A program made the position numbers and the translations under genes. From Geosiphon pyriformis uo1 (Eukaryota; Fungi; Glomeromycota), in NCBI GenBank assembly GCA_016748015.1, contig JAAOMT010000193.1, positions 1-64,000 of the forward strand: a stretch of DNA of 64,000 nucleotides, given 5' to 3'. Below, piece by piece: positions 558 through 49,100 of this stretch (position 1 is the first letter of the stretch; every line of letters begins with the position of its first letter). A model generated the notes under the pieces. That model saw only the letters and a list, made by a program, of their open reading frames with translations. It had not been told where the DNA came from and did no database searches.

Positions 558-904
558 CTGTCAATAGCCATAATCAAGAGTTATTGTTCCTGTATGTTTT
601 AAGTATCAATTACTATCACCATTTAGGGTTGATAGCAAACAACTGGATTTAAGATGCTGAATAAGTATATTTATTGATATTTTGGAATACTATGGTTTCT
701 AACTGGGAAATAGTAACTAAGGAATTTCTTTTTTCTTTTTCCTTTTTCTTTTTTTCTGCCTCTAATGCTACTGCTATATATATGTATTTTCTAGTTTTAC
801 AGGATTGCTTTGGATCGTCTGTTCTTGCTAGCTATTGCTTCATTTTTCTTATGTTATAACTAATTATCCTATGTTATAACACATTATCTGACATTATTAC
901 ACAT
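558..904 (-). mobile_element. Inverted middle segment of E2's 5' LTR (family B)
   Basis: Reverse complement aligns with ~41804-42151 of the intact family B LTR. Its end (...GGCTATTGACAG) joins the family B piece that resumes at 11095. Confidence 0.85.
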
Positions 905-1799
905 TGTTACTTATAGAATATAAGAAATATAGTATTATTAGTTAGTAGATATTAGCCAATCAGATGAAGACGTAGTAAATGTGGAATTTCAGGATTTCTC
1001 TCAGAGGAATTGCAGAATTCCAGGAATTTTAGGATTCTCCAATGAGAAATTCCAGAATTCCAGAATTCCAGGATTCCTCTCATCAGAAATCACAGGATTT
1101 CAAGAATTCTAGAATTTCTGTTGCAAGAAATTGAGAAATTGAGGAATCTTAATTATGTATATATAGCAGTAAGATTAGAAGCTGAAAAAACAGATCTTGG
1201 AAGTTTAGATTTCTCTAAGCAATCTTCCACATTACAAATATCAAATAAATAATTATTCACTATCTCAAATCTCTTCCCAACTATCAACATTTCATGTTGA
1301 TAATAGCACATACTTAACCATACTGGAACAATAACTTTTAATCACAGCTATTAACAGGATACGAATCAAAATCACCTCGGCTTATTTTCTTTATTTCATT
1401 TTTTTTTTTCATTTTTTTTTTCTTTTCTTGTGTTGTTTTGTTGTTGTATACTAATTGATTAAGGATTAGAAGCACTGAGTTATTGACGTCATAAATAGCC
1501 TGATAAAAGACCCAGAAATAAGGGTAGAATTTTATATATTATCAGATAGCTTACCAGAAAGGCATGACTGCCAGACTAAATCTGGCCTCCATGTTGAGAA
1601 AAAAATTGAACAGAATTGCGATTCCAAAGACTATTACAAATACAGTCAAATCTCTGTTCATTATACAAAGAACTCCACCAAAACCTTTCAGATCGCATAA
1701 GACCTTCAGATTACCAACATTAACAGAAATCAATAGCTTTTGAGCACCAAGTTACAGGTTTGTTATTTATTCTCACACCAAAAATAATCACTTGTAACA
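905..1799 (+). repeat. E1 5' LTR (family A)
   Basis: TG...CA termini, direct repeat of 10208-11094, AGCCAATCAG (CCAAT box) at ~955 and TATATATAGC at ~1159. Confidence 0.95.
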
Positions 1800-1818
1800 T
1801 TTGGTGCTTTCTGTAAGG
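1800..1818 (+). promoter_or_regulatory. Primer binding site (tRNA 3'-end complement; consensus TGGTGCTCYCTGTGAGG)
   Basis: TGG starts 2 nt after the LTR end. The same motif occurs at 11497-11515 (+), 30423-30441 (-) and ~37383-37400 (-). Confidence 0.85.
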
Positions 1819-1861
1819 TATAATCCTACAGAGAACCAGCACCAACAAACACCATCTAAAA

Positions 1862-4800
1862 GTGGCAGAATTAGAAAACATAGGAGTAAACCATTTAAGA
1901 TTCATGAAATCTCTATTTCAACACTATTGTCAACACTTGGAATTAAACCACAATCATATATCCGCCGAATCAGCCTTTAATTTCTACATTAATAAAAAGA
2001 TTTTTTCTTTGTTAGGAACATCAGTGAATACTAAAGCAGCCAGAAAAACTTTCTACAGAGAATTAATTCAAAATACCAACCTGCCAACAAATCACAATTT
2101 TGTCTCTATCATTACTAAAATCAACAAAGAAATTGAACATCATACCCAACAAAGGTATCCAATTACTTACGTCAGTAAAGGCAAAGAAAAACTACAAACA
2201 CTAGCAATAACACCCAAAAAGATACAACTACCCACTTGGAAGAAAACAAGAGTTGAATCACCAACTGTGCTATCCTATTACTACACACTGGAAAGCACCA
2301 TCAATATAATATCAGCAAGCATGTCCACATCAAATGCAACATTAATATTTGGACAATTTTCATTCCAAAGTAAACAAAAAAAAACAGAGTTATTAGGACC
2401 ATATGGCAAATATTTTGAAGGATTTAAATTGTGATCACTGATACCATCAGGAATTTGATCACTGCCACCTCAACCAGACTTTGGAACCACTACCTCATGG
2501 GAATTATCTGAAGAAGAAGAGGAAAAAGAATCAAAAGATTAAGAATTTACTTACCAAAACCCAATCACTGAAACCTGGAAGTTGAAACCCCAAATCTTCA
2601 AACTTAACAAAATCTAAATCTAGAAAATTCGGAAATAGAAACTCCAAATCATCAAAGGCAGAACAATTCAAACCCCGAATTAATTAATTAGCAAAACTTA
2701 TCTCCAGTAATCATCATCAATCAACCACCAATTAATCCAATAGCCGAATCCATACAGCAGCCACTTTAACTACCACTCCAACAACCAGTACCACAACAAC
2801 CACTTCAACAGCCCCAGCAATTTATAGTACCAATAGTCTATGCACCAATTGCCAAATTAGAAAAATTCACTGGTTAAGAGAATGATGCTCAAGCTTGGTT
2901 GAATAATGTCACTAAAGCAATCATGGCAAACAATTGGAATGATGGCAGAGCTCTTTAGGCAATCCCATATTTCTTCCAAGATACCGTGGATTCGTGGTAC
3001 CAAAGCTTAGCTACAAAACCTCAAACATTTGACACATTTAAGCAGGAGTTTCTAAAATATTTTAGTAATAATAACAGTATCAACTGTTTGGTAAATACTT
3101 TTACTACCATCAAACAAGGGAACACTGAAGCCATTACCACGTACTTGGGACAATTCCATAGATGCCTGCGCCAGATCCAAGCTATCAATGCTGATTATTT
3201 CACAGTGGCCCAAATTTTAAATCAGTTTATCAAAGACTTATACAGTAGTATTCTCCAGCGCATATGTCCACTACATCCAGCAGATTTACAAACAGCCATC
3301 ACTAATGCCAAAAATTTTGAAGCAGCTGAACTCGAAGCTAACCATGCCCAAGCTATTAATCTAGTAATAAATAGATCATCTGAATTGGATTCTAAATTGA
3401 AACAATTCAGTGATTTCATCAATCAAAAATTAGAGGGATACTTAGCTGACAATTGAGCAATCTATCAACCGCCACAATAATACAACAATCAGGGAAACTT
3501 TAGTCATGTCCAAAATCAACCACATCCATCATTTTCAGCCAATCAACAGTGGCTACAAGAAATGCATGTTTGCCACTATTGTGATAAACAAGAACACATA
3601 CAAGTCAATTGCCACCAGCATTTAAATAACCAATGATTGGGAAATCAATATTGAAACCCCAATCACTGGTTCCCAGCTCTGAGTTCTCAGCAAAATTAAG
3701 AACAATACCAATACTTACCTCATTATGTACCAATGACACAGCAATCAATTTATCAGCCTCTGATATATCAAGCTCAAATTTATCAACCACAGCCACAAGT
3801 AATTTATCAACAACCACAACCACCAATAATCTATTAACCCCAACAAATTCAAACACCACCCCAAAACTTACCACCCAATGGAACACAAAGACCAAGAATG
3901 GTTCAACAGAGCTAGAGATCGGCAATGGTAGTTCATTAGCCAATTCCCAGTTCTTCACAGCAACTATCTGGATTATGCCAGTGGAATTTGGGTACTGGTC
4001 AACCCCAAAACCTGAATTTCCAGAACTATTTAAGTCTTCTGATTACCCCAGAAAACACCTCAGCCAATAACCTGGAATCCACCCAAAAACAACTACTCAC
4101 CAGTAATATCCTACCTGCTACTATCACCGAAGATGAGTTCTTGACTGCTATCTTCCCATTCAAATTTGAGAAAACAACTGCAATGCTGTTATTTAGTGGA
4201 GCTGCTCTTGAAGCCAAACCAATTACTGTAATGTACACGGATGCCAAAGTTGATGGACAATCTATCAAATTGATCTTTGACAGTGGTTCAGCAGGTAGCA
4301 TTATCACACAACAACTTATGGACCAATTAGGTCACCGAGTTGATCTTGCTGCTAGCGCCAGAATCATCACAGCCAATGAAGTAACCAAAATGCCTATCGG
4401 CGAGATAGATGAATTCCCATTTGAAGTCAATGGCATTATCACTTCCATCAAAGTCTTAGTGATGGAAGCCACCCAATACCAAGCTTTAGTTAGTAATGAC
4501 TGGCTGTCCAAAACCAACATCATTCTGGACTGGATGATGCAAGAGCTCCAACTAAGCATCAATGGTCAACACACACATGTGCCAACCACATGTGGCCACT
4601 TCAAGATTCTGTTAAGAGAGGAACTATTGATAAAGCTGAAGGAAGAAAAAAGAAGCCTATTTGAGAAGCTTACCAAATTTCGTGGACCGACAACGACCAC
4701 AATAAATTGCCACTCATACTCTCATGGAACGACAAAGGAAAGAGGAAAGAAAAAGAAGAACTTACCTGGGGAACAAACCAAGGATTATGAAGTAATGACA

Positions 4801-7800
4801 GCCAAAGTGAACTAGCCACTGAATGAAGTTGGAAAGAAAAGAGGAAAGGAAAAGAACAGGAAGAGGAACCAAAACAAACCACCTCCTCCACTCATATTCT
4901 ATATGTGACACTATCTCAAAATGCTTATTGTTGACCCAAACTTGTATGTGTCAGTTGTGGCAAGAAACTGTCAACAATGGGCGCATGCTGTAGTAAGAAC
5001 AAAGAATAGATGACAGCAACCAAGTACTATTGTTACCCATGCATTCTTGAATGCGATGGACAACTGCCAAAAATAGGAAAATGGGATGGTACTTTGTGTT
5101 TAGCTTGTGAAGATATCCTCTTAGATGAAGGGATGTGGAAAAACATTCCTGGAAGAGGAGGAGCATGCAATGAGACATGCCAATACACTATCCTGATCAA
5201 CAACTGGGTATGAAAAGAAACTCCCATTGACAATGTCTGGAAGCAAGCATTAAGATGTCTAGAAGGATACTCACATGACAAAGATAAGATCTAGAGAATA
5301 GCATATGCTATGTCAGAAGGTGCTACAACAGAGGAGCTGAGAGAAATTAAAAACAACCTACTATCCCTACCTGAGCCCGAATATGTCCAAATCTTTGATG
5401 TTTTTGGCAACATCGAAGACGAATTAGAGAAATTTCATGAGCACTCCCAGCAACTAGCATTCACAAAAGAAGAACAAGAAGAGTGTTTAGCACAGCTAAA
5501 CACCTAGCTATGTGACTACTGTTTAATTCCATATGACTTTTAATATTGTAATGAGTATAACCTCATTTACAATCCACCACCATGCATGATCTACATGATC
5601 CCTGAAGAGAAAGAACCAATTAGTAATTGCACATCAGAATCAGAATTGCCAATCAATTACAATTCAAACTCTGACAATGATGACGACAACAACAGTTTAA
5701 GCTCCATTCAAAATGGCAATAACAATGACAATAATTCCAACTCTGATCCAAACTCTGATACAAACTACAAACAATATATTGCACTACCAAATCTTTCTAA
5801 GGAGCAGAAGTTGAAATAGTATAGTGACAATGGGGAAGGTATTATGTTAGAATGCGTGCATGATACTGATGCAGAGTTTGATCTGAGATATCCAGAAAAA
5901 GATGCTATTAAATTGAAGCCAAATGCACGAGTATGCATTGATCTGAGAATAGCTCTAGAGATCCCAGCAACAATCATGGTTCTGTTAGCATTTAGAAGTA
6001 GTTTAGCAAAAAAAGGAATTAATATTAAAGGGGGAATAGTGGATGCAGAATATACAGAAAATATCAGTGCCATGTTACAAAATAACTCAGAAAAGGCTTA
6101 TACCATTGAGCCAAATGAAAAGATAGCACAGGCAATATTTCTGCCACTAGTTAAAGTAGCTAACTTAATGTCAGTGAGAACAAGGGAAAAATTAAAGATA
6201 ACAGCAAGAGGGATACAAGGATTTGGATCAATGGGTAAAATAGATGTACCAGTTAATATGGTGGAGGAAAAAATTGTTGGTCAAGGAAAAATTATCTCAA
6301 CTGGTCAAGCTATTTCCATTCCACCATATAGCCAGTACATGCTAGCAATAGAAAAAAAGGAAAAAGAACAGCATCAGATTTTTGAAGCAGAACTGACCCT
6401 TTGTAAATCAGGAGAGATTAAACTCATCAATCTCCACATACCAGCCAAAAATTACAGCCACATCAAAATTCCCATCTACAACAACACAGGAAATGTCATA
6501 GTAATACCAGCCAGAACCACCATGGGATACTTAAACACTAAAATAGAGGATCAACCACCAAACCCCATTCCAGACTTTCCACAGCTTTGTGAATATGTCG
6601 ACATTACATCACAAACAATCTATGGACGAGATAAATGTTATTTGCTCTAACTAAAACAATTAGAACAAATGAACATAAGAAATCTAGACCCACTACAATG
6701 TATGCAGCTCAAGATGTTACTCAACAATTTCAATGACATCTTTGCCAGTGAAAACAAATTTGGCAGAACTGACATCATCCAACATCAAATCAAGACTGGA
6801 GATGCAATGCCAATCAAACAGCAAGCATACAGAGTACCACCAGCCAGCCATAAAATCATCTGTTCAAGAGAGTAACCGAATGCTTGACAATGAGTTAATT
6901 CAGCTATCAATAAGTCCATGGTTGTCACCAGTAGTACTTGTCCATAAGAAGAATGGAAAGATCCGATTTTGTGTAGACTACAGAAAACTAAATAGTGTAA
7001 TTTGTGGAGACAACTATCCAACTCCACGAATACAAGAACTATTCGATGCTTTTGGTGGAAACAAATAGTTTTCAATGTTAGACTTAGATAGTGGTTACTG
7101 ACAAGTAGCCATGGATCCAGCCAACAAAGAAAAAATAGCATTCACCATAAAAGAGAGAAACTTTGAGTTTGAAGTTATGCTATTTGGCTTAACCAATGCA
7201 CCAGCCACTTTCCAATGGCTAATAGAAATTGTTTATACTGGCTTATTGTGGAAATCAGTAGTTGTATACTTGGACGACACCAATGTATTCTCAAAAACAT
7301 TTGATGATCATCTTTATCATCTTCAACAAGTGTTTGAAAGACTAAGAAGAGCAGAACTAAAGTTAAATGCAACAAAGTGCTTCTTTGACAAGACAGAACT
7401 AAAATTTTTGGAACACATAGTCAGCAAAGATGGCATCAAAATGGATCCAGAGAAAATAGAGATAGTAAAGAACTTTTCAGTACTGACCAATATGACAGAA
7501 CTGAAATCATTCTTAGGATTTGCCAGCTACTATTGACATTTTATCAAGAACTTTTCCAAGATAGTGCAGCCACTTAACCAACTGCAAACCAAGAATACAA
7601 AATATAAATGGACAGAAAGTCAATAAGAAGCTTTTGATATTCTGAAAAGAAAGCTCATTCAAGCTCCAGTATTGATCTATCCAGATTACAGCAAACCATT
7701 TATCATCACCACTGATGCATCCGGCCAAGCATTAGGAGCAGTACTATCTCAGAAAAGACCAGACAGCAGAGAACATCCAGTAGCATATGCCAGCAGAGGT

Positions 7801-8070
7801 TTAACACCAGCCGAAAAAAACTATGGAACACCAGAACAAGAACACTTAGTAATATACTGGGCAGTTATGAAATGGAAAGAATACTTGAGCCAGAAGTTTG
7901 AAGTATACACAGATCACAAAGATTTAACATCACTCCAAAAACAAGAATTTGGAGATAAAAAACAGTCAAGATGGAAAATGGCACTCGCATTATATAATTA
8001 TACTATACATTATAAAAAAGAAAAAGACAACGGAAATGCTGATGGTTTATCACAAATGAGACAAATCTAA
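1862..8070 (+). pseudogene. E1 Gag-Pol-like polyprotein (N-extension, capsid, CCHC knuckle, aspartic protease, Cys-rich region, dUTPase, RT, RNase H), disrupted
   Basis: Capsid-like SWYQSL...EFLKYFS; knuckle CHYCDKQEHIQVNC at ~3571; protease LIFDSGSAGS; RT RFCVDYRKLN, FGLTNAPATFQ, VYLDD; RNase H TDASG...YASRGLTPAEKNY. Stops are mainly transition-type (CAA/CAG/CGA/TGG to stop). Confidence 0.92.
5844..6240 (+). pseudogene. dut: dUTPase domain of E1
   Basis: Trimeric dUTPase motifs: DA(E/G)FDL, RSSLAKKG, GGIVDA(E/G)Y, EKIAQ, RGIQGFGS(M/T)G. Confidence 0.9.
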
Positions 8071-8131
8071 GGACATTTCAACCCAAAAATATAACAAAAC
8101 CAAAACAATACTTACAAAAATATAACAAAAG

Positions 8132-9508
8132 ATGAACACACAAAAATATCAACAACTTCAACATTATATAGATACTTAACAGTTCAAGGAGAAATTATCT
8201 CAACCAGAACAAAAGAAAATCAAACAACAATCCAAATATTTTATCATCCACCAAAATATACTTTATCAGAAAAATAGAAAAGATTCAAATTAGCCAACCA
8301 GAGTAATTACAGAACCAGAAAAGGAAACAATACTGTTCAACATACATTCAGATCCAACTGCAGGACATTTTCATAAAGAAGCAATCATGGAAAGAACCAA
8401 AAAGAGATATTATTGGTCATCAATGTATCCAGACATCATACAATATGTACAAAATTGTGATGCTTGTCAAAAAAGAGGAGAAACAAGACCCAGCAAACCA
8501 TTGAGACCAATCAAAATGGGACAACTATTTAACCACATTGGAATCAATTTAGTTGGACCATTGACAATTACCAGCAAAGGCAACAGATATATTGCAGTAA
8601 CCATGGACTACCTTACAAAATGGCCAGAAGCAAAAGCAATTCAAAAAGTGGATGCAGAATCTGTTGTCGAATTCGTCCATCAAGATTTGATTTGTCAATA
8701 TGGATGTCCAAAAGAACTATTATCAGACCAAAGAACCCATTTTGTGAATAGAACATTAGCAAAACTAAGCCAAAGATTCGGAATTAAGAGACCACAATCA
8801 TCACCATACCATTCACAAACCAATGGATTAGTTGAAAGATTTAATAGAACATTGTGTAAAGCAATAGTAAAACTCAGCCAAGAAAACCAAGATGAATGGG
8901 ATTTGTTTATACCATTCATACTATTGGCTTATCGGACAATGAAGCAAGACACTACACAAACAACACCATTTGAATTAGTATATAGTAGAACAGCAACACT
9001 ACCAGTCGAGATAGAAGTCAACACTTATCCAACAGAACCAATAACTGTAGACAATTTTCAGAAAACATTACTAAGAAAAACATATGAATTGATGGAAACT
9101 CTAAAAAACAAGTGACGAAGAGCAGCTGATAACATTAAAAAGGCACAAGAAAAACAAAAAGAAAGGCATGATAACCAACTACCAGACAAACCAGTTGAAT
9201 TCAAGATTGGAGACAAAGTACCTTTACATCATACTAAAGCGGAAAACCAATGGAGTGGGAAATTTGACTCCAAATGGGATAGACCATTTTACATAGAAGA
9301 AATTCTAGGAAATGGAGCTTACAAATTAAGACTGGACAACAGAATCTTAGCCAAAGCAGCACATGGTGATTGATTGAAACCATATTACCAGATAGCATTA
9401 GCATCTACCAATAACATTCCACAACTGGAAGTACAAAGAATACTAGTTCAACCAGATAAGATTCCACAAGACTGGGAACCAATCATAATCATTAGACCAA
9501 ACACATAA
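8132..9508 (+). pseudogene. E1 integrase, separate ORF
   Basis: ATG 61 nt after the RNase H stop. HHCC zinc domain (H-SDPTAGH...CDAC), DDE core (DLVGPL-like, SDQRTHF, NGLVERFN) and GPF/Y-type C-terminus (KWD.PF). Confidence 0.9.
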
Positions 9509-9510
9509 AA

Positions 9511-10194
9511 TTGAACAACAAAAGAGTATATAAAGACATAGTCAACACGACAAAAGATACCAGAAAAATGGAAATAACCAACAACATCCACTCACTAGCA
9601 CAACAACTCTTTCAATTGATCCAACACCAAGAAATGGAAATTACAATCAATCAACAAACCATTCGTTACAAAAATATGGCAAAGATACCACAACACAAAG
9701 CACAGAAAAGACTTGAAAATGTTGTTAACAAGATCATGACCAAGATAAAATTGGCCATAAATAAACAACAAATAGTCAGATTATACCAAGACCTTACCAG
9801 AGAAACTTAGACTTGGTGGATACAACAATTTCTGAAAAACTATTGTCATTTCTACTTGGGACAACACATAAATATCCAGAATTTGTACACCGACAAAACA
9901 AAACAGTTATTTGACACAACAATGAGACAACTGGAACAATTTGTGGAAAAGAACAATCTAACCACACAAGCTCAAGCCATCTACTGGCTATATATGGAAT
10001 TTTAGAATCGACCAGAAATCTTACTCAACACAGCCATGGATACAATTACAAGTAATCAATTGGGAAAAATGACCAATGCCCAATTTGAAGAACTACAAAC
10101 TAAAATAACACAAATTATACTTGAAAAAGAAGTTCAAGAAATAATTTAAGAAGGGGAATTAAAGAAATTAGATTTCGACAGAGCTCAATATTAA
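9511..10194 (+). pseudogene. E1 ORF3, unknown ~220-aa protein between IN and PPT
   Basis: Homologous to the intact ORF at 21734-22393(-). Ends ...DFDRAQY-TAA directly at the PPT. Confidence 0.8.
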
Positions 10195-10207
10195 AAGAAG
10201 GGAATAA

Positions 10208-11094
10208 TGTTACTCATAGAATATAAAAAATATAATATTATTAGTCAGTAGATATTAGCCAATCAGATGAAGATGTAGTAAATGTGGAATTCCAGGATTC
10301 CTCTTATAGGAATTGCAAAATTCCAGGAATTTCAGGATTCTCTGACAAGAAATCGCAGGATTCCAGAATTTCAGAATTCCTCTCATCAGGAATTGCAAGA
10401 TTCCAGGAATTCCAGGATTTCTGTTGCAAGGAATTGAGAAATTGAGGAATCTCAATTATGTATATATAGCAGTAGGATTAGAAGCTGAAAAGACAGACCT
10501 CGGAAGTTTAGATTTCTCTAAGCAATCTTTCACATCACAAATATCAAATAAATAATTATTCACTATCTCAAATTCCTTCTCAACTATCAACATTTCATGT
10601 TAATAATAGCACATACTTAACCATACTGGAACAATAGCTTTTAATCACAGCTATTGATGGGATACAAATCAAAATTGTCTTGGCTTATTTTCTTTATTTC
10701 ATTTTTTTTTTTCTTTTTTTTCTTTGTGTTGTTTTGTTGTTGTATACTAATTAATTAAGGATTAGAAGTGTTGAGTTATTGATATCATGGATAGCCTGGT
10801 AAAAACCCAAAAATAAGGGTAAAATTTTATATATTATCGGATAGCTTACCAGAAGGGCACAACTGCCAGACTAAATCCAGCCTCCACGCTGAGAAAGAAA
10901 TTGGACGGAATTGTGATTCTGAAGATTATTACAAATACAGTTGAATTTCTGTTCATTATACAAAGAACTTCATCAAAACCCTTCAGATTACATAAAATCT
11001 TCAGATTACCAACATTAACAGAAATCAATAGCTTTTGAACACCAAGTTACGAGTTTGTTATTTATTCTCACACCAGAAATAATCACTTGTAACA
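10208..11094 (+). repeat. E1 3' LTR (family A)
   Basis: Direct repeat of 905-1799, preceded by the purine tract AAAAGAAGGGAATAA. Confidence 0.95.
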
Positions 11095-11558
11095 ATGAGA
11101 TACTAATTTACATTGTCTTGGCTTATTGTCTCTATTTTCTTTATCTCTTTTATTTTTTGTCTTTATTTTGTTGGGTATACTAAGTGATTGAAGATTAAAG
11201 TGCTAAGTATTGACATTAAGAATTGCCTGGTAAAAAACCTCTATGAGTAAGTAGAATGCATATGAATTACAAATTGCTTAGAGGATTGCTGGCCACTATG
11301 CTGAGAAAAAAATTAACGGAATTGTGATTCCGGGAAGCTATGGAAAAAATAACATGAGAATCTCTGTCCATTATACAAAAAACTTTAATCAAAACTTTCC
11401 GATTAAAACACCTTCAGACATTACTAACATCATCAATTAAGCACCAAGTTACAGGTTTGTTATTTGCTTTGAGATCCCAAATAATCACCTGTAATATTTG
11501 GTGCTTCCTGTGAGGTATAATTCTACAAAGAACCAGTATCAACAACAATTATCCAAAA

Positions 11559-17482: not shown

Positions 17483-17495
17483 TTATTTCCTCCTT

Positions 17496-30379: not shown

Positions 30380-31325
30380 TTTTGGTTTGGTGTTGTTAGT
30401 GCTGGTTCTCTGTAGGATTATACCTCACAGGGAGCACCAAATGTTACAGGTGATTATTTCTGCTGTTGAATTAAATAACAAACCCATAACTTGGTGCTTA
30501 AAAGCTACTTCCATTGAGGCTGTTCTGCAGGTACTGTATCTGAAGATTTTGATGGATTTAAAGGTTTTGGTTGAATCCTTTGTATAATAGACAGAGATTC
30601 AATAGTGTCAATAGTAAAGATATTTTCCAAGAGTTTTCCCAATTTCTTTTTCAGCGTGGTGGCTGGATTTAGTCTGGCAGTTGTGCTCTTCTGATAAGCT
30701 ATCCAATAATATATAAAAATTCTACCCGTATTTCTGGGTCTTTTACCAGGCTATCTTTGACGTCAATAACTCAGCGCTTAATCATTTATCAATTAGTATA
30801 TAACAACAAATCAAAATAAAATAAAGAAAAAGAAATAAAAGAAAATAAAGAAAGCAAAGAAATAAGCCAAGGTGATTTGCAGATTAGTATCCCGTCAATA
30901 GTCATGATCAAGAGCTATTGTTTTAGCATAGTCAAGTATCAATTACTATCAACATGAAGGATTGATAGTGGGGAAGTGGATAGAGATATAAAATAATTAT
31001 TTATTTGATAATTGTGTTTCTAGGCTAAGGATTCTGTGATATCAATTCTGTTTTTTCTGTTTCTAACACTACTGCTATATATACATAATTGGGATTCCTC
31101 AATTCCTCGAGTCTTCACGATAGGAATTCTGGAATTCCTGAAATTCTGTGATTTCTTTGAGAGGAATCCTGAAATTCTGCAATTCTGCAATTTCTTGTTG
31201 GGAATCCTAAAATTCCTGGAATCCTGCAATTCCTAAGAGGAATCCTGGAATTCCATATTTACTACGCTTACTTCTGATTGGCTAATAATTATGCTAATAT
31301 ATTTCCTATATTTCTATGAGTAACA

Positions 31326-37300: not shown

Positions 37301-37339
37301 TTCTAAGTGGTTGGCTCCTATAATTTATGATTCTGCCAT
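31326..37339 (-). pseudogene. E3 polyprotein (N-extension, Gag, PR, Cys-rich region, dUTPase at ~32890-33280, RT, RNase H start)
   Basis: ORFs 36962-37288, 35667-35969, 34599-35252, 33303-34472, 32334-33116 and 31314-32150 (YLDD). Confidence 0.92.
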
Positions 37340-37400
37340 GTTTGGATGGTGTTGTTGGTGCTGGTTTTCTGTAAGATTATATCTCACAGAGAGCACCAAA

Positions 37401-38314
37401 TGTTACAGGTGATTCTTTGGGGTGTTGAGTGAATAACAAACCTGTAACTTGGTGCTCAAAGCAATTGGTGACAATGATAATCTGAAGGTTTTCCAATTGA
37501 GTTCTTTGTATAATGGACAGAGATTCATTGATAACAGTTTATTAGTAGTTTTCTGAAACCATAGTTTTGTCAATTGCTTGCTCAGCTTGATGGTTGATGA
37601 TTCTTCTGGTATAATATCCTCCGTAAGTGTATACCAGTGTTGTTTCCTAATGTCAGTTTCTCTGTAAGTCCTCCAAGAGTAAGTATTGTTTAAGCAAGTT
37701 TATTCCTCTATAAGTCCTCTAAGAGTAAGTATTGTTTAAGTAAGTTTTATTCCTCCATAAGTCTTCCAAGAGTAAATCTTTTAATCAAGTTAGTAAACAA
37801 CAAAGAAAATAAAGAAAAGATAAAAGAAAAAAGAAAAAATAAGCCAAGGCAATTTGCAAGTTGGTATCTTGTTAATAGCCGTGATCAAGAGCTATTGTTC
37901 CAGTATGATTAAGTATCAGTTACTATCAACATAAAGTGTTGATAGTAAAGAATGAATTTGATATAGTGAATAATTATTTATTTGAGGATTGTGATAACTA
38001 AGTTAAGGATTCTTGGTGTCAATTCTCCCTTTTTCTGCTTCTAATACTACTGCTATATATACATATTTGAGATTCCTCAATTCTTCAATTCCTTGTAACA
38101 GAAATCCTGAAATTCCTGGAATTCTGCGATTCCTGATGAGAGGAATCCTGGAATTCTGGAATTCTGCAATTCTTCGCCAGAGAATTCTAAAATTCCTGGA
38201 ATTCTGTAATTCCTCTGAAAGGAATCTTGGAATTCCACATTTATTATGTCTACTTCTGATTGGCTAATATCTACTTGTTAATAATAATATACTTCCTATA
38301 TTCTATGAGTAACA
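37401..38314 (-). repeat. E3 5' LTR (family C)
   Basis: Direct repeat of 16554-17482, adjacent to the PBS. Confidence 0.92.
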
Positions 38315-41300
38315 CTAACTCCAAAAATCCAAGAACTATTTAATGCTTTTGGAGAAAAAAATGGTTTTCAACTTTGGATTTAGACAGCAATTACTGGCAA
38401 GTAGCCATAAAACTGGAAGATAAAGAGAAAATGGCTTTTACAATGTGAAAAGGGAATTTCAAATTTGAAGTAATGCCATTTGGTTTGATGAATGTACCAG
38501 CCACCTTCCAACGACTAATAGAAATTATTTACATTAGACTACTATGAAAATTAGTAATTGTTTACTTAAATGACACAAATGTGTTTTCCAAGACATTCAA
38601 TGATCATTTGCATCATTTTTAACAAGTGTTTGAAAGACTAAAAAGAGCTGGATTAAAATTAAATGCAACCAAGTGTTTCTTTGGAAAAACTGAACTCAAG
38701 TTTTTGGGACATATTGTGAGCAAAAATGGTATCAAAACAGATCCAGACAAGATCAAAGTAGTTAAAAACTTTCTAGTACCAGCCAATTTGACAGAACTAA
38801 GAGCATTCTTGGGATTTGCCAGATACTATTGCCACTTTATCAAAAATTTTTCTAAACTGGCCCAGCTATTACACCAGCTTCAATCAAAAAATATCAAATA
38901 TGAATGGACAGAAAACCAGCAAGAAGCTTTTAACATATTAAGAAGAAAGCTTATTCAAGCTTCAGTGTTGATGTATCCAGATCACAGCAAACCATTCATC
39001 ATTACCACTGATGCATCAGGCCAAGCAATGGAAGCAGTACTATCACAGAAAAGACTGAATGGAAAAGAACATCCAATAGCATATGCCAGCCAAAGTTTGA
39101 GTCCAGCTGAAAAGAACTATAGAACACTAGCATTAAAACACTTAGCAATCTATTGGACAGTCATGAAATAGAAAGAATACTTAAGCCAGAAGTTTAACAT
39201 ATACACTGATCATAAAGGATTGACTTCAATTCAGAAGCAAAAATTTGGAGATAATCATCATGCTCGATGGAAAATAAAACTTTTACCATTTAAATATACC
39301 GTACACTACAAAAAAAGAAAAAAAAAACAGAAATGCTGATGGTTTATTACGAATAAGACAAATCTAAGGACACTTCAACCCAAAAATATAACAAAAGATG
39401 AATAAACAAAAATATCAACAACTTCAATATTTTATAAATACCCAATAGTTCAAGGAGAAATTATCTTAAAAGAAACAAAATCATATTAAACAACAGTCCA
39501 AATATTTTATTATTAACCAAAATATACTTTATCAAAAAAACAGAAAGAATCCAGATCAACCAACCAAAGTAATTACAGAATTAGAAAAAGAAACAATATT
39601 ATTCAACATGTACTCCGATTCAATAGCAGAACATTTTTACAAAGAAGCAACCATAGAAAGAACCAGAAATAAATACTATTGGCCATTCATATACCCAGAC
39701 ATAATCCAATACGTGTAAAATTGTGATACTTGTCAGAGAAAAGAAAGAACAAAACCTAGCAAGCCATTAAGACCAATCAAAGTAAGACAACCATTTGAGT
39801 GGATTGGAATTGACTTAGTTAGACTATTAACAATAATTAGCAGAAGGAACAAATATATCACAGTAGCCATAAATTATCTCACTAAATGGCCAGAAGCAAA
39901 AGTAATTCAAAGAGCAGATGCAGAATTTGTTGCCAAATTTGTTCATCAAGATCTGATTTGTCGACATGGATGTCTAAAAGAATTATTATCTAACCAAAGA
40001 ACTTACTTTGTGAATAGAATATTAACAGAACTGAGTCAAAGATTTGGAATAAAGAGACTATTATTATTGTTATATCACCCACAAACCAATAGATTAGTCA
40101 AAAAATTCAATAGAACATTGTGTGAAGCAATAGCCAAAATCAGCCAAGAAAACCACAAATGAGACTTATTTATACCATTAGTACTATTTGCTTATTGGAC
40201 AATGAAGCAAGATACTACACAAGCAACACTATTTGAATTAGTATACAATAGAACAGCAATATTACCAGTTGAGATAGAGGTCAATACATATCCAATAGAA
40301 CCAATAACAGAAGACAATTTTCAAGAAACATTGCTGAGAAGAACATATGATGTAATGGAAATACTAGAAAACAAATGGCAAAGAGCAGCTAATAACATTT
40401 AAAAATCACAAAAAAAACAAAAAAAAAAGCATGATAACTAACTACCAGATAAATCAGTCGAATTCAGGATTGGAGACAAAGTACTGTTACATTATACCAA
40501 AGCAGAAAAACAGTGAAATGGAAAGTTTGATTCAAAATGGGACGGACCATTTCACATACACAAAATTTTAAGAAACAGATCTTACAAGTTATGATTAGAA
40601 AACAGAATTCTGAAAAAGACAGCACATGGAAATTGTTTAAAAATTTATCAAACACAAGGATCGACATTAGTGGAACCACAACTAGGAACACAAATTCCAT
40701 TAATCAGACCAGAAGATATACCACAAGATATAGAACCAATAATAATCATTAAGACATAGCTACATATGTGCCGAAATCCAGATATTATGCATATATAAAC
40801 CTCAAGACCACAAAGAAGAAAACAATAGAAATTTTAAACATAGACCTTTTAGACAAAATTTTAAAATTATCTAAACAATTATTTAATAAAATTCAAAAAT
40901 CTACATCTCAAATAGAAATTATAATCAATAAAAAAGAGATAAGATATAGAGATAAGGGGAAGAAAGAAATAGGTGAGAGTTCAACTAGAACTAACTATTC
41001 TTATTCCTATACTCTGCCCGGAAAGGAAATTTTACAAAAAGAAATTAAATATACTTCTTAGATGGGACATGGAGAAAAAGGAGAGAAGAAAGAAGAAAGA
41101 GTGAAAAAATTAGATAGAAAACAAAAACAATTATATACAACATATTTGGCCCTTAAGCTAAAGAAAATTAAAGAATCTTTAGCTCATGAGACTGAACTCC
41201 CCGAAACAAGAGAGTGGACACCAGATAATGTTTAGGAGTGAAAAAAAAGACTTCTTCTAATATATTGGTTTTATAAAATTGGAGAACAATTAGACTTAGA

Positions 41301-41610
41301 AAACCCATACAGAGACTACAACCAGAAAACTTTCAACAAAGAAGCAATGTAACAAGTAGAAAAATTTGTAGGAAGAAACAACCTAACACTACACTACAAG
41401 GCAACATGTCGATTATACGTCACTTTTCAATATTGTCCAAATGTACTATTGAATAGATCATTGAAAAAGATAACAGTCAACAACATAGAACAAATAACCA
41501 ATTAACAGTTCGAAGATCTACAAAAAGCCATAGTCAATATAACCATCGAACATTACATAAACAAAGTTCTATTAACAGACATAACTGATTTTGCAAAAGC
41601 TCAATATTAA
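38315..41610 (+). pseudogene. E2 3' part: RT/RNase H (stop at 39365-39367), integrase (39398-40759) and a divergent ORF3 (~40768-41610)
   Basis: ORF 38626-39171 (TDASGQ), IN motifs, and an ORF3 C-terminus FVGRNNL...DFAKAQY* shared with the other copies. Confidence 0.88.
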
Positions 41611-41625
41611 AAAAGAAGAAGATAA

Positions 41626-42553
41626 TGTTACTTAAAGAAAAAAAGCCTATCAAAAAAAAAAAAAAAATGTGACCTAAAAAAAAACATAACGAAACATGAA
41701 AGGACACAGAATAGTATACAATAACATTAAATAATGCATTATAATATTGGATAATGCATTATAATGTAGGATAATGTGTTATAATATGAAATAATATAAA
41801 ATAACATGTAATAATGTTAGATAATGTGTTATAACATAGGATAATTAGTTATAATGTAAGAAAAATAAAGCAATAGCTAACAAGAACAGACAATCCAAAG
41901 CAATCCTGTAAAACTAGAAAATACATATATATAGTAGTAGCATTAGAGGCAGAAAAAAAAGAAAAGAAAAAGAGAAAAAAGAAATTCTTTGGTTACTATT
42001 TTCTAGTTAAAAATCATAGCATTCCAAAATATCAACAAATATACTTATTCAGTATCTCAAATTCAGTTGTTTACTATCAATTCTAAATGGTGATAGTAAT
42101 TGATACTTAAAACATACGGGAACAATAACCCTTGATCATGGCTATTAATGGAATACTAACTTACATTGTCTTGGCTTATTGTCTCTATTTTTTTTATTTT
42201 TTTTATTTTTTTGTCTTTATTTTGTTGGGTATACTAAGTGATTGAGGATTAAAGTACTAAGTATTGATGTTAAGAATTGCCTGGTAAAAGACTCCTATGA
42301 ATGGGTAGAACACATAAGAATTATGGATTACTTACCAAAAGATTGCTGGCCATCATGCTAAGAAAGAAATTGATGGAATTGTAATTCTGAGAAGCTATGG
42401 AAAAAATAACACGGGAATCTCTGTCCATTATACAAAAAACTCCAATCAAAACCTTCTGATTGAAACACCTTTAGACATTATTAACATTATTAATTAAGCA
42501 CCAAGTTATGAGTTTGTTATTTGCTTTGAGACTCCAAATAATTATCTGTAATA
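41626..42553 (+). repeat. E2 3' LTR (family B; U3 built from ~10-nt GATAATGT-type repeats)
   Basis: Follows the PPT. Contains the sequences seen at 558-904 (reversed) and 11095-11496. Confidence 0.9.
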
Positions 42554-43499
42554 ACATTTATAATTAAATATAATATAAGTCTAGAATTAAGACTAATATA
42601 ATATGTTTTTAATATGTTTTTAAATTTAATATGGTATTTAAAAGATTATTTATGTTTTTTAATTTTTATATAAAAAAAAATTATAAAAAATACACTACAA
42701 TAAAAGAAAAAAAACTTTATTTTAATTCAAATTATTATGAATTTTATAGTTATTAGTTAGTTTAAAATTTATTATTATACAATTCAAATAGTATTACTTA
42801 AATAGAAAAGTAATCAGAAATTTATTAAAAAAAGACATAAAAACTATGTAATAATATAAAAAAATATAATAACACAAGATAATACAAAATAATATAAAAT
42901 AACTTAAGATAATACAAAATAATACATAATAATACAAAAAAGCACAAAATAACTAATAATAACATAAAATAATTAGTTATAATATAAAAAAACAAAACAA
43001 TAGCTAAAATAATAATTAATAATTAATAATAATAAGCAAATAAAAGCAATCTTATAAAATTAGAAAATAGTATAAAAAAAATAATTTTAGCAAATAAAAA
43101 ACAGACCAAACAAGAATCAATTTTTTTATAATATATTTTTTTATTATAATTTTTTATCTTATTTTTTTATATTTTGTATTAATTAAATAAAAATATTATT
43201 ACTTAATTAAAAAAAAATACATAATTTTAATATTTTGATTTTTAATATCTAATTAATTGCTTTTTTTTATCTTTATTTCAGACCAGATGCTATTAATATA
43301 AATTTTTTTTGGAATTTTTATGACTGAATCAATTATTTTTGATTATAGTAATTAATAAAATACCAATTTTTTTATTATTATTATTTTTTTATTTTTTTTA
43401 CTTTTTTTTATTTTTTTTATTTTTTTTATTTTTTTTATAGAGTAGCAACATTAAAAATTAACTGTTTAAAAATAGATTTTGTAATAATTTAGTAAAAAA

Positions 43500-45900
43500 G
43501 AAAAGCTTTTTTAAGTTTAAATATTAATTTTATCTTATTAGATTACTAAAAAGACAAAAAAACAATACTAAATCTTAATAACTATATTTATTAATTTAAA
43601 GAAAAATACAAATATAATAACACAATTAAAAAAACAATATCTTTGTATCTTATAACAAAAAAATTCAATGAATAAAACTTTAGACAGAAAAATTTTCAAA
43701 AACTAATAACTTACAATATAATTAAAACCAATTTATTTGATTTTTATACTGCTTTTAGTATTTAAATTATGAGTGCCAAATCTTATAATTATATTCTACC
43801 AAGTTTACTTATAATAATAGTTATTGTAAATTTTTTCAAAAAATTTAATAAACTTAGAACATATTTTAATCTTTACCAAACTGTTTTTTAAATAAAATTA
43901 TTCAACAAAATTATATGTTTTATATATATTTTATAAAACTAACCACAATTTTTAATTCTTTTTTAGAGTATTTTCTATAACTGAATTAATAGCAAAAATT
44001 AATAATAAAGTTAATATATTCTTTAAAACTAAAAAATTGTTATTATAAAAATATTTAAATAATTATATATATTAAAGATTTAGTTTGATAACAATTTTAA
44101 TAAAATTTTACAAACAATCTTAATTAATACTATAAAATAAGTATTTATTAAAACTCTTTTTTAATTATAAAGTTTAAAAATTATCAAAACTTATACATAT
44201 TTTTATTAAATTAGCATCAATTTTAAAACTAGACAGAAGTTTAATAAAATTAGAAATAAATTCAAAACACATATTATAATATTGTCAAAATTTATTTAGA
44301 ATACTAAAAAGTTTAATAGTTTTACTAAAAAAAAGAAATTTTATTACTAAAAAAGATTATTTAAAAAATTTGGCTTATTATATTAAAAAAACCAGTATTA
44401 TTTATAAAATTCAAAAAAGTATATTATTGCTATTATAAAAAAAAATTATTAAGAATATTTTAGCTTTTTGTTTATCTTAACATAATAAAATTTATTAATA
44501 ATTTGATTTTATTAAGAACAAAAATAAGTTTATTATTGATTATTAAATAAATTAGCACTATTTTACAAAAAAAAAATTTAAAATATTATGTTATATATTG
44601 TTTTATTGTTAATAAAATTTTTTATCTATTTTTAAATAATTAAATTAATTTTATTTGATTTAATTTTGCAAAATTTTTGAAATTTTTTTGCAAAAAACCA
44701 AATCAATAATATTAATACTTAAATTATTATAAAAAATATCTTAAATAACTCTGTATACTTTAAAATTTAACTTTAATTATTTGTGTATAAATTTTACAAA
44801 TTTTGTATTTAAAATTAAGTAATTTTAAAAACCAGAAATTTTAATTTTAGTTTTAAAAAACACTTAATCTACAATAAGATACATAATATTTTTAAGATAT
44901 TTTACATTATATCTAAATTTTTAACAAGTTTTGACTTTTTAAACTTAATATTTATCATATTTAAGTTTAACAAAATAGAGTTTTTAAATTTGGTCTACTT
45001 AATATTATCAATATTTTTAAAATTATAAAATTTTAATTAATAATATAAGTTTTTTTATAATATAATACCAAAAAAAATAGCAAAATATAAAAAATATATA
45101 TTATTTATTCTTTTTTTTATATATGTTTTATTAATATTAATTTTTGTTATACATATTTTAAATTTTTTTTAATAAAAATCAAGTATTTAAAAATATTAGT
45201 TTAATAATTTTTAAATTAGCAAATTTTATTACAGTTTTATTTTTTTTATAGATAAATATAATTTAATTGCTAACTATAATATAAACTTCTAAAATTTTAT
45301 AATAAGCTGTAACTTATAATAAAAGATTATTATAAGTTATAAATTATATTTTTAGTAATAATATTTTTATTAAATATAAATATAAATTAAAAAAATTTTA
45401 AAAAAGTAAAAATTTTTGATTTTTTTGAGTTTTTTTCTATTATTAACAAATTAATATTCAAAAAAAAAATTTTACAAACTTAAATTCAATTTTTTTTTAA
45501 AAAAGAAAAAAAAATTATTGTTATTTTTAGTATTACTTTTTAATTAATTTTTTAATAAAAATAAATTGATTTAAGTATTTATAAAATTATATTATTTAAA
45601 ATATTAGAATATTTTTGTTATATAAAGTTGGTTTTCTTAATATTTAATCTATTATTAATACTATTATAAAACTGTTTATTTTATTAATTTAAAACACTTT
45701 AAATTTAATTATTTTTATATTTAACTTATTAATAAAAGTTTCTATTAATAATATTTTAACACTAGTTTTTTTGCTTTTTTTGTCTATTTTGTTAAAATTT
45801 ATGTTAATAAATTTTTTTAATACTAAAATAAACTTTTTTATTATTATTTTTTATTATATTTATTCCAAATATGTCTATTATGTTTAACTTTATTAACAAA
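43500..45900 (-). mobile_element. Probable very old antisense LINE remnant (RT region), boundaries uncertain
   Basis: The minus strand at ~44100-44200 reads as a transition-eroded version of the IPK.Y.W....N.RPI.LI.T RT-entry block seen at 50640-50720(+). The rest is nearly pure A/T. Confidence 0.4.
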
Positions 45901-46199
45901 AATATATTAAAAAAAATAGCTTAAAAAAAACTTTTGAAAAAAAAACGATTTATTTTTTGTTTTTTTCATAGTTTAAAGATTAATAAAAAAAAAGTATTTT
46001 AAAATTTTTTTAATTTGTGTAATTTGTTGTATTATTTATAATTATAATAAATTTAGTTATAAGTATAAATAATTTTTTACTTTATTTTTATAATATGTTC
46101 TTATTAATTACAAAATAAAGTTTTTTAAAATAAATAATAAATTAAATTAAATTAAATTAAAAAATAACATATAAAAAATAAGAATATAATTAAAAAAAC

Positions 46200-49100
46200 T
46201 ATTTTTTTTCTTACATCCCAAATTTTATAAAGAGCATAATTTTGATAAAAAAGTTTTTTATTTTTTTTTGTTGTTTCTATCAATATTTTTTAATTCAATA
46301 ACTCTTTTTTTGTAAACATAAAAGCTGTTTTAAGCAGCAATATATCTAAGAAAAAAATACTTAAAGAGGCTTTTTATAATCCAATTGGTAGTTTTTTTTC
46401 CAAAAAAAAATTATTTTTAATAATGTTAAACACTCTGATAATAAAAAAATATCTTTTTGGTCAAATTTTGTTTTGATAATAATATGTTTTTGAATATAAA
46501 TAGTAATTTTAATAATAGTAAATACAGTATTACTTATAAAAATTAGAAATTATAATAAATAGATAAAATAATTAATCAGAAATAGACATAATAAAAAAAA
46601 AATTTCAGAATTCCTCTTAAAAAATTGTAGAATTCCAGAATTTCAGAATTCTTTTCAAAAGAATTAAAAAATTTTAAAAAATCTCATATAATACGAATTA
46701 TATATATAGTAAAAATATTAAAAACAAAAAAACAAACAATTTAGTTCAGAATAATAATATCTCTTTCTTTAAAAAATAGTTTTTTATAACTTGAAATGGA
46801 ATTATACTTATATTAATAAAACATTTATTATTATCCAAATTTATATTATTATTACTTAATTAAAGAAATATTAATTTATTCCATAATATTAACACTTTAT
46901 GTTAATAAAAGCCAATACTTAACTATACTAGACCAATAGCTCTTGATTATAACTATTGATAGAATACTAATTTTTTCTTTTCTTTTTTTCTTTTTTTTTG
47001 TTTTGTTTCTTTATTGTTTACTAATTAATTAAAAAAATTAAGTACTAAGTAATTAACATCAAAGATAGTCTGATAAAAAACCCAAGAACAAGGGTAAAAA
47101 TTTAAGAATAGCTTACCAAAAAAGCACAACTGTCAAAATAAACTGGTCACTATGCTGAAAAAAAAATTCACAGAAAAAAACCATCAATTAAATTTTTGTT
47201 CATTATACAAAAGACTCAACTAAAATTTTTAGACTCTAAAATTTTCAGAAATTACTATTATCAACAATTATTGAATACCAAGTTACAAATTTGTTATTTG
47301 TTTTAATATTCCAAATAATTACTTATAACAATAATAGTTTTGTAACTAATGTTGATGATAGTTCTTTTTTTGGTTTAGTTGTTACTATTCTTAAGACTAA
47401 AAAAATGGCTTCTGCTATGATTTTTGGTTCTTTTTTTGGTTTTTTTAATTTTAATATAAATAAAAAAGTTGGACTTCTCTTACTTTTTTTTAGTGTCTTA
47501 TTATACAAAAAATGAATTGATTTTAAGATTACCAAAACTTAAGTAGAAATACTTATTGAAAAATTTTTTGCTTTAAATATTAATTTTTTAGCTATAGAAG
47601 ACAAGTTAACAATACTAAAAACTCAAATAATTAGAAAACTATTTTTAATAATTAATGAATTTGAGAGAAGTCACTATTTCCTTAAAATTTAAAGAAATTA
47701 TCAGATTAATGTTTATATTAGAAGAAAACATAGAGAAAACTATGTCATTAGCTGGTATAAAAGAGATTATTGTAAATACCAATCTCAAAAGACAAAAATT
47801 TATTCAAATCAAATTATAATTATTAAGGAAATTCTTATAAATACACTAAAAAAAATAATTATTGCAGTTCTATTTAAGTTTGATTAAGTAGTGTTAATCT
47901 ATTTATAATTAATTAGTTTATGACAGAAAACTGTGATAAAGTTTGCTAAATTAGTACAGACAGATTAGTTGACAGCAAAGTAGTTATTTTTAATTAGAAA
48001 AAATTCAGTATACATAGCCAAAGCTATAAGAAATCATAATATTTAGTTGTTAAAAAATTAGTTTAAGATGCTTTTATTTATTTTGTTAATAAAAATAACT
48101 GCTTATAATTTAGGAACTTTATTGAAGAGAACTGGTAAAAAAACTTGTATTATTAACTAATTATTTAATACTGGTAATAAGATTTGATGTGTTGTAGTTA
48201 GTTTTAAAATAAATAAAAAACTTAAGACTGTTTTTTGTACAGAGCCAATCTTTGGTAATATAAAATTCTTTTGGATTAAATTAGTAAAAAATATGGGTGT
48301 TTTGGATATTTGGTTCTAGAATATAATACATCAAACATATTTCTCATGTCTTTTAAAAAAATTTATAAAAAGATTGCTTTAGAAGAAAATTTTTTTTGGT
48401 TGGCCAGATTGTATGTTAAAAAAATGTTTTTATTTTATATTCTACTGTATTTGGTAGCAAATTTTGGCTTAGATAGTTTTATTTGCTGTTTTTTTTGATG
48501 ATACTTATTTTGATTTTGGTTTTTTTTTTTTTGGTATATTATATGTTAAAAAAAGTTTTTAAGTTATTTAAGACAATTTACTTATTAATGTCTATTTGGC
48601 ATTTTTGAAATGTTTTTTAAAGCTTTTGGCAGATCAAGTATCTAATATTATGCAAAGATTAAGTTTTGTAAATCTGGTATTTTTGAAACTTATTTCTCAA
48701 TTCTTCTTTTCTATTGTGTCTGTATTATTAAATTTGAATTTAAATTTAAATATGGTTTTAGATAACCCACTTGTGTTACCTGTTTTTTTTCTTTCAATTA
48801 AAAATAAAAAAGTTTTAAATTTGGGTTTAAATAGATCAAAAATTCTGATTACCAAAGTAAATGGCTTGAAATCAAAAATAGTAACTTTTAAAGTTTTAGT
48901 TAGTTCAGTATTGGTAAGATTAGATCAGTTGTGTACTGGCTCAAGTCTTTTTGGGATTGTTTTATCTTAACAACTGATTTGATTTGGAAATTGTTACATG
49001 TAATGTTTGTAGTATTAATATTTTTACTAAGTAAAAAAATATAGTTTATTGGCATATAGAATTAAATAATATAATCTTTATTATTACAGAAACAAAATTG

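What the first reader, a model, noticed from the sequence alone, without database searches (positions are those of the whole stretch)
558..47334. Insertion sites are consistent with 4-bp CpG-centred targets (nCGn): possible CpG or methyl-CpG-directed integration
Seen TSD pairs: E4 TTGG/TCGG (20875, 31326); solo LTR CCAT/CCGT (18412, 19390); E1 ACAG/ATGA (558-561 reversed, 11095), where a related LTR still reads ACGG at ~30892-30895(-); the left-edge element junction ATGT (901-904 reversed) versus ACAT in the uninterrupted LTR (41804-41807), implying ACGT; E3 CTGA/CTAA at a conserved Pro codon, implying CCGA; the solo LTR in the LINE ACAG/ATAA, implying ACGG; and E2's right flank ACAT. Two sites retain CG directly and the rest collapse to nCGn by C>T/G>A decay. 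CpG is scarce in this AT-rich DNA, so chance is unlikely. Inference: the integrase prefers CpG-centred sites, possibly methylated ones. That would steer elements into other young repeats and away from genes, explaining the nesting. An unrelated LTR family shows the same preference.
Basis: partly seen in the sequence, partly recalled or inferred. Interest (0 to 1): 0.85.

Follow-up and report, generated by a model that had tools for sequence, protein, structure and literature searches.

The report
Fungal retrotransposons that insert at CpG
In a nest of jumping genes in a fungus of the mycorrhizal lineage, the insertions sit at four-letter sites that likely all had CG in the middle, likely because the integrase prefers that sequence, as related animal transposons do; nothing here shows that the CG must be methylated.

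Summary
The junctions are as described. They belong to nested Ty3/gypsy LTR retrotransposons (gag-PR-dUTPase-RT-RH-IN-ORF3) in a Glomeromycotina genome. Only the 4-bp register gives TSD pairs without transversions (5 of 5 pairs). Of 8 junctions, 4 show a central CG directly (CG kept, or TG and CA in sister copies), 1 implies CG through a conserved Pro codon, and 3 are compatible but uninformative. Only 1.9-4.7% of positions in these elements score 'CG' by the same rule (P about 1e-5 to 3e-4). Against a generic pyrimidine-purine (YR) preference, known for 4-bp integrases, the excess is modest (P 0.003-0.04). No independent genome-wide TSD set could be obtained. The methylation reading has no positive support: no chromodomain, no methyl-reader fold in ORF3. 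Neighbouring genes carry 28 CpG/kb against at least 47 inferred for fresh elements and 0.3 in old repeats today, so CG preference can favour young over old repeats but cannot by itself avoid genes. CG-centred 4-bp targets are published for Ginger1 transposons (CCGG, CCGT/ACGG), whose transposase is gypsy-integrase-like; my searches found no such report for an LTR retrotransposon. Verdict: real, probably intrinsic integrase specificity; a new variant of a known kind.

The parts
17..557 (-). Left-edge element, LTR (5' part; rest outside window)
   Evidence: 90% to E1 LTRs, TGTTAC start at 557
558..561 (-). E1 left TSD copy ACAG (inside the inverted segment)
562..900 (-). Inverted piece of E2's 5' LTR (segment 558-904 flipped between two inverted LTR starts)
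   Evidence: 92% to 41807-42146 reversed
901..904 (-). Left-edge element's remaining TSD copy ATGT; sister LTR reads ACAT
905..11094 (+). E1, full-length Ty3/gypsy element; LTRs 905-1799 and 10208-11094; gag, protease, dUTPase, RT-RH, integrase (about 8100-9500), ORF3; broken by stops
11095..11098 (+). E1 right TSD copy ATGA
11099..42553 (+). E2, the outer element: rest of 5' LTR 11099-11496, PBS from 11497, internal part interrupted by E3, 3' LTR 41626-42553
16550..16553 (+). E3 TSD copy CTGA
16554..38314 (-). E3, inserted in E2's RT; 3' LTR 16554-17482, 5' LTR 37401-38314
18412..19393 (.). Solo LTR B 18416-19389 (TGTTAC...GTAACA, 974 bp) in E3's integrase gene, TSD CCAT/CCGT
20875..31329 (-). 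E4 20879-31325 in E3's RNase H region, LTRs 20879-21720 and 30442-31325, TSD TTGG/TCGG on the + strand
21734..22417 (-). E4 ORF3, 227 aa stop-to-stop, mostly helical, no known family
38315..38318 (+). E3 TSD copy CTAA
41804..41807 (+). Uninterrupted sister of the left-edge site, ACAT
42148..42151 (+). Uninterrupted sister of the E1 site, ATGG
42554..42557 (+). E2 right flank ACAT (partner outside window)
42788..43772 (+). Strongly decayed E2-type LTR from 42792, left flank ATAG; right end not definable
   Evidence: alignment score 609 vs at most 450 in 20 shuffles
46524..47334 (+). Solo LTR A 46528-47330 in the ORF1-like part of a decayed LINE-like element, TSD ACAG/ATAA
54500..63000 (.). Gene region used as comparison: CpG 27.9/kb, o/e 0.83; no LTR insertion

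Best explanation
These nested gypsy-type retrotransposons make 4-bp target duplications, and their integrase likely selects targets with a central CG step by reading and bending the DNA itself, probably without needing methylation. Shown: element anatomy, 4-bp register, CG at 4 of 8 junctions directly, and heavy later C-to-T/G-to-A change that hides it. Inferred: the integrase pair cuts 4 bp apart around a sharply bent central step; 4-bp integrases favour YR steps, and this lineage has narrowed that to CG, as Ginger1 transposases have. Consequence (inferred): fresh elements are CpG-rich and old methylated repeats lose CpG, so new copies tend to land in young repeats rather than old ones; their absence from genes, which are also CpG-rich, must come from selection or a separate chromatin-level bias.
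For: 4-bp register unique. CG direct at E4, solo B, E1, left-edge; inferred at E3. Background 1.9% and 4.7%; P 9e-6 to 3e-4. All 8 junctions have a YR-type centre (background 22%). CpG cytosines differ between sister LTRs in 90 of 126 cases against 17-30% elsewhere, so decay is expected. Precedent: Ginger1 TSDs CCGG 75%, CCGT/ACGG 24%, with gypsy-like integrase (PMC2836005); two of the five inferred targets here are ACGG/CCGT and four of five contain CCG on one strand. Central YR preference of 4-bp integrases is largely independent of chromatin (PMC4422553). No chromodomain on the integrase; ORF3 model matches no methyl-binding fold. Weak outside hints from run X1: single flanks ATAG and GTGT, and a 14-contig plurality flank ACAG (C as plurality expected about 5% of the time).
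Against: Against a generic YR preference the CG excess is only P 0.003-0.04. E3 rests on inference: 3 of 3 homologous sites read CCAA. The larger X1 group (34 contigs) gave plurality flank ATAT, which fits doubly decayed CG and plain AT-rich DNA equally. No target reads CCGG, the commonest Ginger1 site, and kinship with Ginger1 was not tested. That methylation is dispensable is argued from absence and analogy; every informative target lies inside a repeat that later decayed like methylated DNA.
Confidence: 0.6

Rival explanations
1. Methyl-CpG-directed integration: the intasome, or ORF3 as adaptor, prefers 5mCpG, so copies land in silenced repeats and avoid unmethylated genes.
For: All informative targets are inside other transposons, none in the CpG-rich gene region. 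TEs carry high mCG in R. irregularis and core genes low (PMC8647823 passages). CpG decay shows the hosts were methylated at some time. CpG methylation altering retroviral integration in vitro is in print (Kitamura 1992; title seen, paper not held; content recalled).
Against: Fixed insertions avoid genes under selection anyway. No chromodomain; no Pfam family or significant fold for ORF3, best Z 4.5. Time of methylation relative to insertion is unknown. Ginger1 shows CG-centred targets with no reported methylation link in the parts read.
Confidence: 0.15
2. Generic flexible-step preference: the integrase favours any central YR step (CA, TG, TA, CG), as other 4-bp integrases do, and CG is over-represented here by small numbers.
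For: YR preference is general for 4-bp TSD retroviruses (PMC4422553 section 6). 8 of 8 centres are YR-type; three junctions show no CG. X1 flanks read TA, TG, TA, CA.
Against: CG-implied steps are 314 of 1717 YR columns (18%) internally and 64 of 747 (9%) in LTRs; P(at least 4 of 8) = 0.042 and 0.003; counting E3, P(at least 5 of 7) = 0.003. In retroviruses the YR gain is only about 63% over background, far weaker than 8 of 8. None of the five two-sided pairs has an unchanged CA/CA, TG/TG or TA/TA centre, which are 614 of 747 compatible background pairs.
Confidence: 0.18
3. Chance or after-the-fact reading of decayed 4-mers; no target preference.
For: Decay lets many 4-mers be read as former nCGn (22% compatible); one locus.
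Against: Positions are fixed by LTR ends, all junctions in the window were counted, and the strict rule has a 1.9-4.7% background.
Confidence: 0.05

Closest known systems
Ginger1 DNA transposons (Bao, Kapitonov, Jurka 2010, PMC2836005)
   Same: 4-bp TSD centred on CG (CCGG, CCGT/ACGG); TGTNR ends; H2C2, DDE core and GPY/F motif; a YPYY-like segment before the zinc finger (by eye).
   Different: Ginger1 are TIR DNA transposons of animals without RT, with OTU/Ulp1 tails. Here: LTR retrotransposons with gag, PR, dUTPase, RT-RH, ORF3; inferred targets CCGA (2), ACGG (2), ACGT (1), none CCGG. Common ancestry not tested.
4-bp TSD retroviral integrases PFV, MoMLV, PERV, XMRV (PMC4422553)
   Same: 4-bp stagger and a flexible YR step at the centre.
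   Different: Their preference is weak (about 63% above background) and covers all YR steps; here it appears strong and CG-specific.
Drosophila gypsy-group elements with sequence-specific targets: gypsy TATA, Idefix ATAT, ZAM CGCG (PMC5408687, PMC3276498)
   Same: Ty3/gypsy LTR elements, 4-bp palindromic targets shared within a clade.
   Different: CGCG has GC, not CG, at the centre; most are AT-rich; insect errantiviruses with env.
dUTPase-bearing fungal Ty3/gypsy elements (Postia PosPlaTy3-5, Tuber Tmt1; passages of PMC2864245)
   Same: dUTPase between protease and RT (stated for PosPlaTy3-5).
   Different: The passages discuss chromodomain elements and give no CG target; relationship not tested.
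Unnamed Glomeromycotina Ty3/gypsy polyproteins P0011, P0012 (Cetraspora pellucida), P0013 (Rhizophagus clarus)
   Same: 45-49% integrase identity; same part of the tree with about 55 soil-metagenome copies (support 92-94, quick search); TGTTAC LTR starts and TTTGGTGC-type PBS in several relatives.
   Different: Their target sites could not be read.

Membership tests
Ty3/gypsy (Metaviridae) LTR retrotransposon | gag, then PR-RT-RH-IN order | tested here: met
   Pfam hits in order along E1, E3, E4
Ty3/gypsy (Metaviridae) LTR retrotransposon | Direct LTRs TG...CA, PBS, PPT, 4-6 bp TSD | tested here: met
Ty3/gypsy (Metaviridae) LTR retrotransposon | GPY/F motif in integrase C-terminal part | tested here: met
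   GPF in E2 and E4 by eye; weak SH3_Tf2-1 hit E 0.005
Chromovirus | Chromodomain at the integrase C-terminus | tested here: not met
   No chromo hit on E1's 466-aa read-through integrase nor on P0011, P0013, P0014; chromodomain-bearing hits fall elsewhere in the tree
Ginger1 | TIR DNA transposon without RT | tested here: not met
   LTRs and RT-RH present
Ginger1 | 4-bp TSD, CCGG or CCGT/ACGG | tested here: inconclusive
   4 bp and central CG met; 2 of 5 inferred targets ACGG/CCGT, 0 of 5 CCGG
Ginger1 | YPYY motif upstream of the H2C2 finger | tested here: inconclusive
   By eye three aromatic positions present, Pro replaced in window copies, present in P0013-P0015; the paper's alignment files could not be read
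Ginger1 | C-terminal OTU or Ulp1 domain | tested here: not met
   No such Pfam hit
Ginger1 | Integrase groups with Ginger1/GIN1 in a tree | not tested
   No labelled Ginger1 sequence was among the proteins fetched
Errantivirus (ZAM group) | ORF3 is an env gene; target CGCG | tested here: inconclusive
   ORF3 has no Pfam family and no fold match; targets have central CG, not GC
Methyl-CpG-reading integration system | Preference for 5mCpG over CpG | not testable with these tools
   Needs methylation maps with new insertions or in vitro assay

The most novel reading that the evidence does not exclude
A Glomeromycotina-wide gypsy clade integrates at methylated CpG, using the host's own silencing mark as its landing signal: new copies go into young methylated repeats, and the target pool shrinks as those CpGs decay, which would build same-age nests and be self-limiting. 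The conserved ORF3 could be the adaptor.
Probability: 0.15. Interest if true: 0.85.

Novelty: new variant of a known kind. Interest (0 to 1): 0.45.

Why it matters
A strong CG-centred target rule in an LTR retrotransposon would extend the Ginger1 pattern to the retrotransposon side and bear on the open question whether Ginger1 came from a YPYY-type gypsy lineage. In a genome that erases repeat CpG, such a rule ties insertion sites to repeat age. Practically, the TSD centre is the fastest-mutating spot, so tools that demand identical TSDs will miss these elements: 0 of 5 pairs here are identical. If methylation is read, it would be a new way for an element to find silenced DNA.

Tried and rejected
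My LTR-end pattern had a wrong gap length and matched nothing even in the window; the metagenome scan with it (0 hits) is no evidence. Viral contigs: no relatives. Metagenome scan with alignment A4 gave 80 loci (best 80 of 443 confirmed); those with LTRs were collapsed or ended inside the LTR, and none gave a usable TSD; the ACGG after a GTAACA-like motif in L043 lies in open coding sequence and was rejected. Laying run X1 showed very many LTR copies (10116 contigs laid) but only a few flanks; X2 and X3 hold next to nothing (1 and 0 laid). X1 may be the window's own sample, so it is not independent. LINE ORF1 homologues could not fix the solo A codon. Pfam on the 12 read-through frames of 42.5-54 kb: 0 hits. 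ORF3: model pLDDT 71, Foldseek PDB no match at E 0.001 or better, VIA best Z 4.5 with weak helix-turn-helix-like rows at Z 3-3.5, below the noise level; the Atlas did not answer. 3-, 5- and 6-bp TSD registers rejected. Earlier-findings look-ups were empty. No further large insertions in the 4-copy alignment.
Full report
Setting. The window is 31% GC with CpG o/e 0.36. A G-patch gene at 59964-60890 has its best named hits in Glomus, Rhizophagus, Funneliformis and Acaulospora (33-45% identity), and the LINE-like repeat at 46-50 kb has its only hits (4 of 4) in Geosiphon pyriformis (31-41%), so the host is a Glomeromycotina fungus; the species was not determined. Bases 1-42553 are a nest of Ty3/gypsy elements with gag, protease, dUTPase, RT, RNase H, integrase and an extra ORF3 before the 3' LTR. 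LTRs run TGTTAC...GTAACA with a TTTGGTGC-type PBS and a purine tract. E2 is outermost; E1 and the left-edge element sit in its 5' LTR, E3 in its RT, E4 and solo LTR B in E3. Sister-LTR divergence is 10.6% (E2, part of the LTR), 10.3% (E1), 8.5% (E3) and 8.2% (E4), in line with the nesting order (E3's ends were set 13 and 1 bases off in that script).

Observation. All quoted 4-mers are present. In 5 of 5 two-sided pairs the 4-bp register has only transitions, while 3, 5 and 6 bp bring transversions in 14 of 15 tests (E3 taken, the others; the exceptions are none for 5 and 6 bp; 3-bp rows all carry at least one transversion, so in effect every other register fails). Direct evidence of a central CG: E4 (TCGG kept; an Arg codon in the AYASR stretch), solo B (CCGT kept; 2 of 3 uninterrupted homologues CCGT), E1 (CA and TG in the two copies; ACGG still in E4's LTR), left-edge (TG versus CA in the sister LTR). 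E3 (CTGA/CTAA) implies CCGA only through the conserved Pro codon and one-way decay; its 3 homologous sites read CCAA. Solo A, E2's single flank and a newly noted decayed LTR at 42792 (flank ATAG) are compatible but uninformative.

Chance. In sister LTRs 308 of 316 differences are transitions; a C before G differs in 90 of 126 cases, before A, C, T in 70 of 395, 78 of 261, 69 of 419. By the strict rule (CG kept, or TG and CA), 64 of 3365 LTR dinucleotide pairs and 379 of 7990 internal columns score as CG. P(at least 4 of 8) is 9e-6 or 3e-4. Plain chance is therefore unlikely. The harder rival is a generic YR preference, which holds for PFV, MoMLV, PERV and XMRV (PMC4422553, abstract and section 6). 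CG is 9-18% of YR steps here, giving P(at least 4 of 8) 0.003-0.042, or 0.0001-0.003 for 5 of 7 with E3 counted. That favours CG but on few events.

Outside data. One public run holds the LTR (X1; possibly the window's own sample). Laying it gave two single flanks (ATAG; GTGT) and two plurality flanks at the LTR end (ATAT from 34 contigs, ACAG from 14; 21 further rows not shown by the tool). All four centres are YR-type; C as plurality among 14 random bases is expected about 5% of the time, but the contigs need not be independent, and ATAT says nothing. Eighty metagenome loci show the clade is common in soil assemblies, with about 55 copies grouping with the window, Cetraspora and R. clarus integrases (quick tree of 191 rows, support 92-94, midpoint root; rows under 170 aligned residues left out), but gave no TSD. 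One search was a faulty pattern and is no evidence.

Mechanism. Best reading: direct selection of a central CG step by the integrase (inferred). Ginger1 transposons, whose transposases share the H2C2, DDE, GPY/F and YPYY parts with some gypsy integrases (Athila/Tat, Gypsy-1-I_RO, DGLT-A1), make 4-bp TSDs CCGG (75%) or CCGT/ACGG (24%) (PMC2836005; parts 1-3 of 5 read; its alignment files unreadable). The integrase here has GPF and a YPYY-like segment by eye and no chromodomain. ORF3 has 83 relatives at E 0.001 or better, a mostly helical model and no significant structural match, so nothing points to a methyl reader, though that does not exclude one.

Nesting. The gene region (54.5-63 kb) has 27.9 CpG/kb (o/e 0.83), the nest today 7.2 (0.24), the old repeat zone 0.3 (0.04); fresh elements had at least about 47 per 1000 columns. 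CG preference alone thus favours young over old repeats, but gives less than twofold against genes. Avoiding genes needs selection, chromatin targeting or 5mC reading. mCG is high in TEs and low in core genes of R. irregularis (PMC8647823 passages), so the methylation model is possible, but fixed insertions cannot tell it from selection. Solo B shares no nucleotide similarity with the main LTR but shares its termini, so it is not an independent test.

Literature. Ten searches found no report of CG-centred TSDs in an LTR retrotransposon or of target sites in Glomeromycotina elements; the library lacks most subscription papers and Repbase entries, where such a note could stand. Passages only were seen of PMC6839031, PMC5408687 (ZAM group CGCG), PMC2864245 (fungal dUTPase elements), PMC11952901 (AMF TE survey, no TSD), PMC12810828 (not relevant), PMC3276498 (clade-wise palindromic targets), PMC12440569 (Troyka has CG termini and 3-bp TSD, a different thing) and PMC10045372. 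Kitamura 1992 was not held; its content is recalled. The reading of the PBS and of LINE RT motifs is from recall and was not used as evidence.

Verdict. Observation confirmed; CG-centred 4-bp targeting likely real (about 0.75 summing the two CG readings); intrinsic integrase readout 0.6, generic YR 0.18, methyl-CpG 0.15, chance 0.05. New variant of a known kind; interest 0.45.

Noticed in passing
window 558-904: 347-bp segment inverted between two opposed LTR starts, likely by recombination between them; E1's 5' LTR may be chimeric.
   Followed up: partly
window 22130-22759: Exact 305-bp duplication either side of a 20-N gap in E4's ORF3; looks like an assembly artefact.
   Followed up: no
window 42554-53000: Old repeat zone at 9-22% GC with almost no CpG; sister LTRs also differ at 17-30% of non-CpG cytosines and 97% of changes are transitions. 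A strong RIP-like or general C-to-T process, although RIP is reported absent in Gigaspora (cited in PMC8647823).
   Followed up: partly
window 5820-6650, 14930-15841, 25629-26438, 32334-33137: dUTPase between protease and RT in all four elements.
   Followed up: partly
window 21734-22417 (-) and equivalents in E1, E2, E3: ORF3 of unknown family, 83 relatives; by eye also at the C-terminus of Cetraspora P0011; E2's version is much more diverged. Only sub-threshold helix-turn-helix-like fold hits.
   Followed up: partly
P0013, P0015: Relatives carry a Spuma_A9PTase (foamy-virus-like protease) Pfam hit; P0013 also has a second protease-like hit.
   Followed up: no
window 46342-50038 and 43818-44311: Decayed LINE-like element on + whose ORF1-like part matches G. 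pyriformis proteins; a second, inverted related piece near 44 kb.
   Followed up: partly
window 54886-62714: Long open frames for a RanBP-type zinc finger protein, a Y-family DNA polymerase (IMS), a G-patch protein and a 2OG-Fe(II) oxygenase, in CpG-rich DNA with a sharp border to the repeat zone near 53.5 kb.
   Followed up: no
L008, L009, L018, L019, L030, L054, L056, L066: Soil-metagenome relatives share purine tract plus TGTTAC LTR starts; several have a TTTGGTGC-type PBS.
   Followed up: partly
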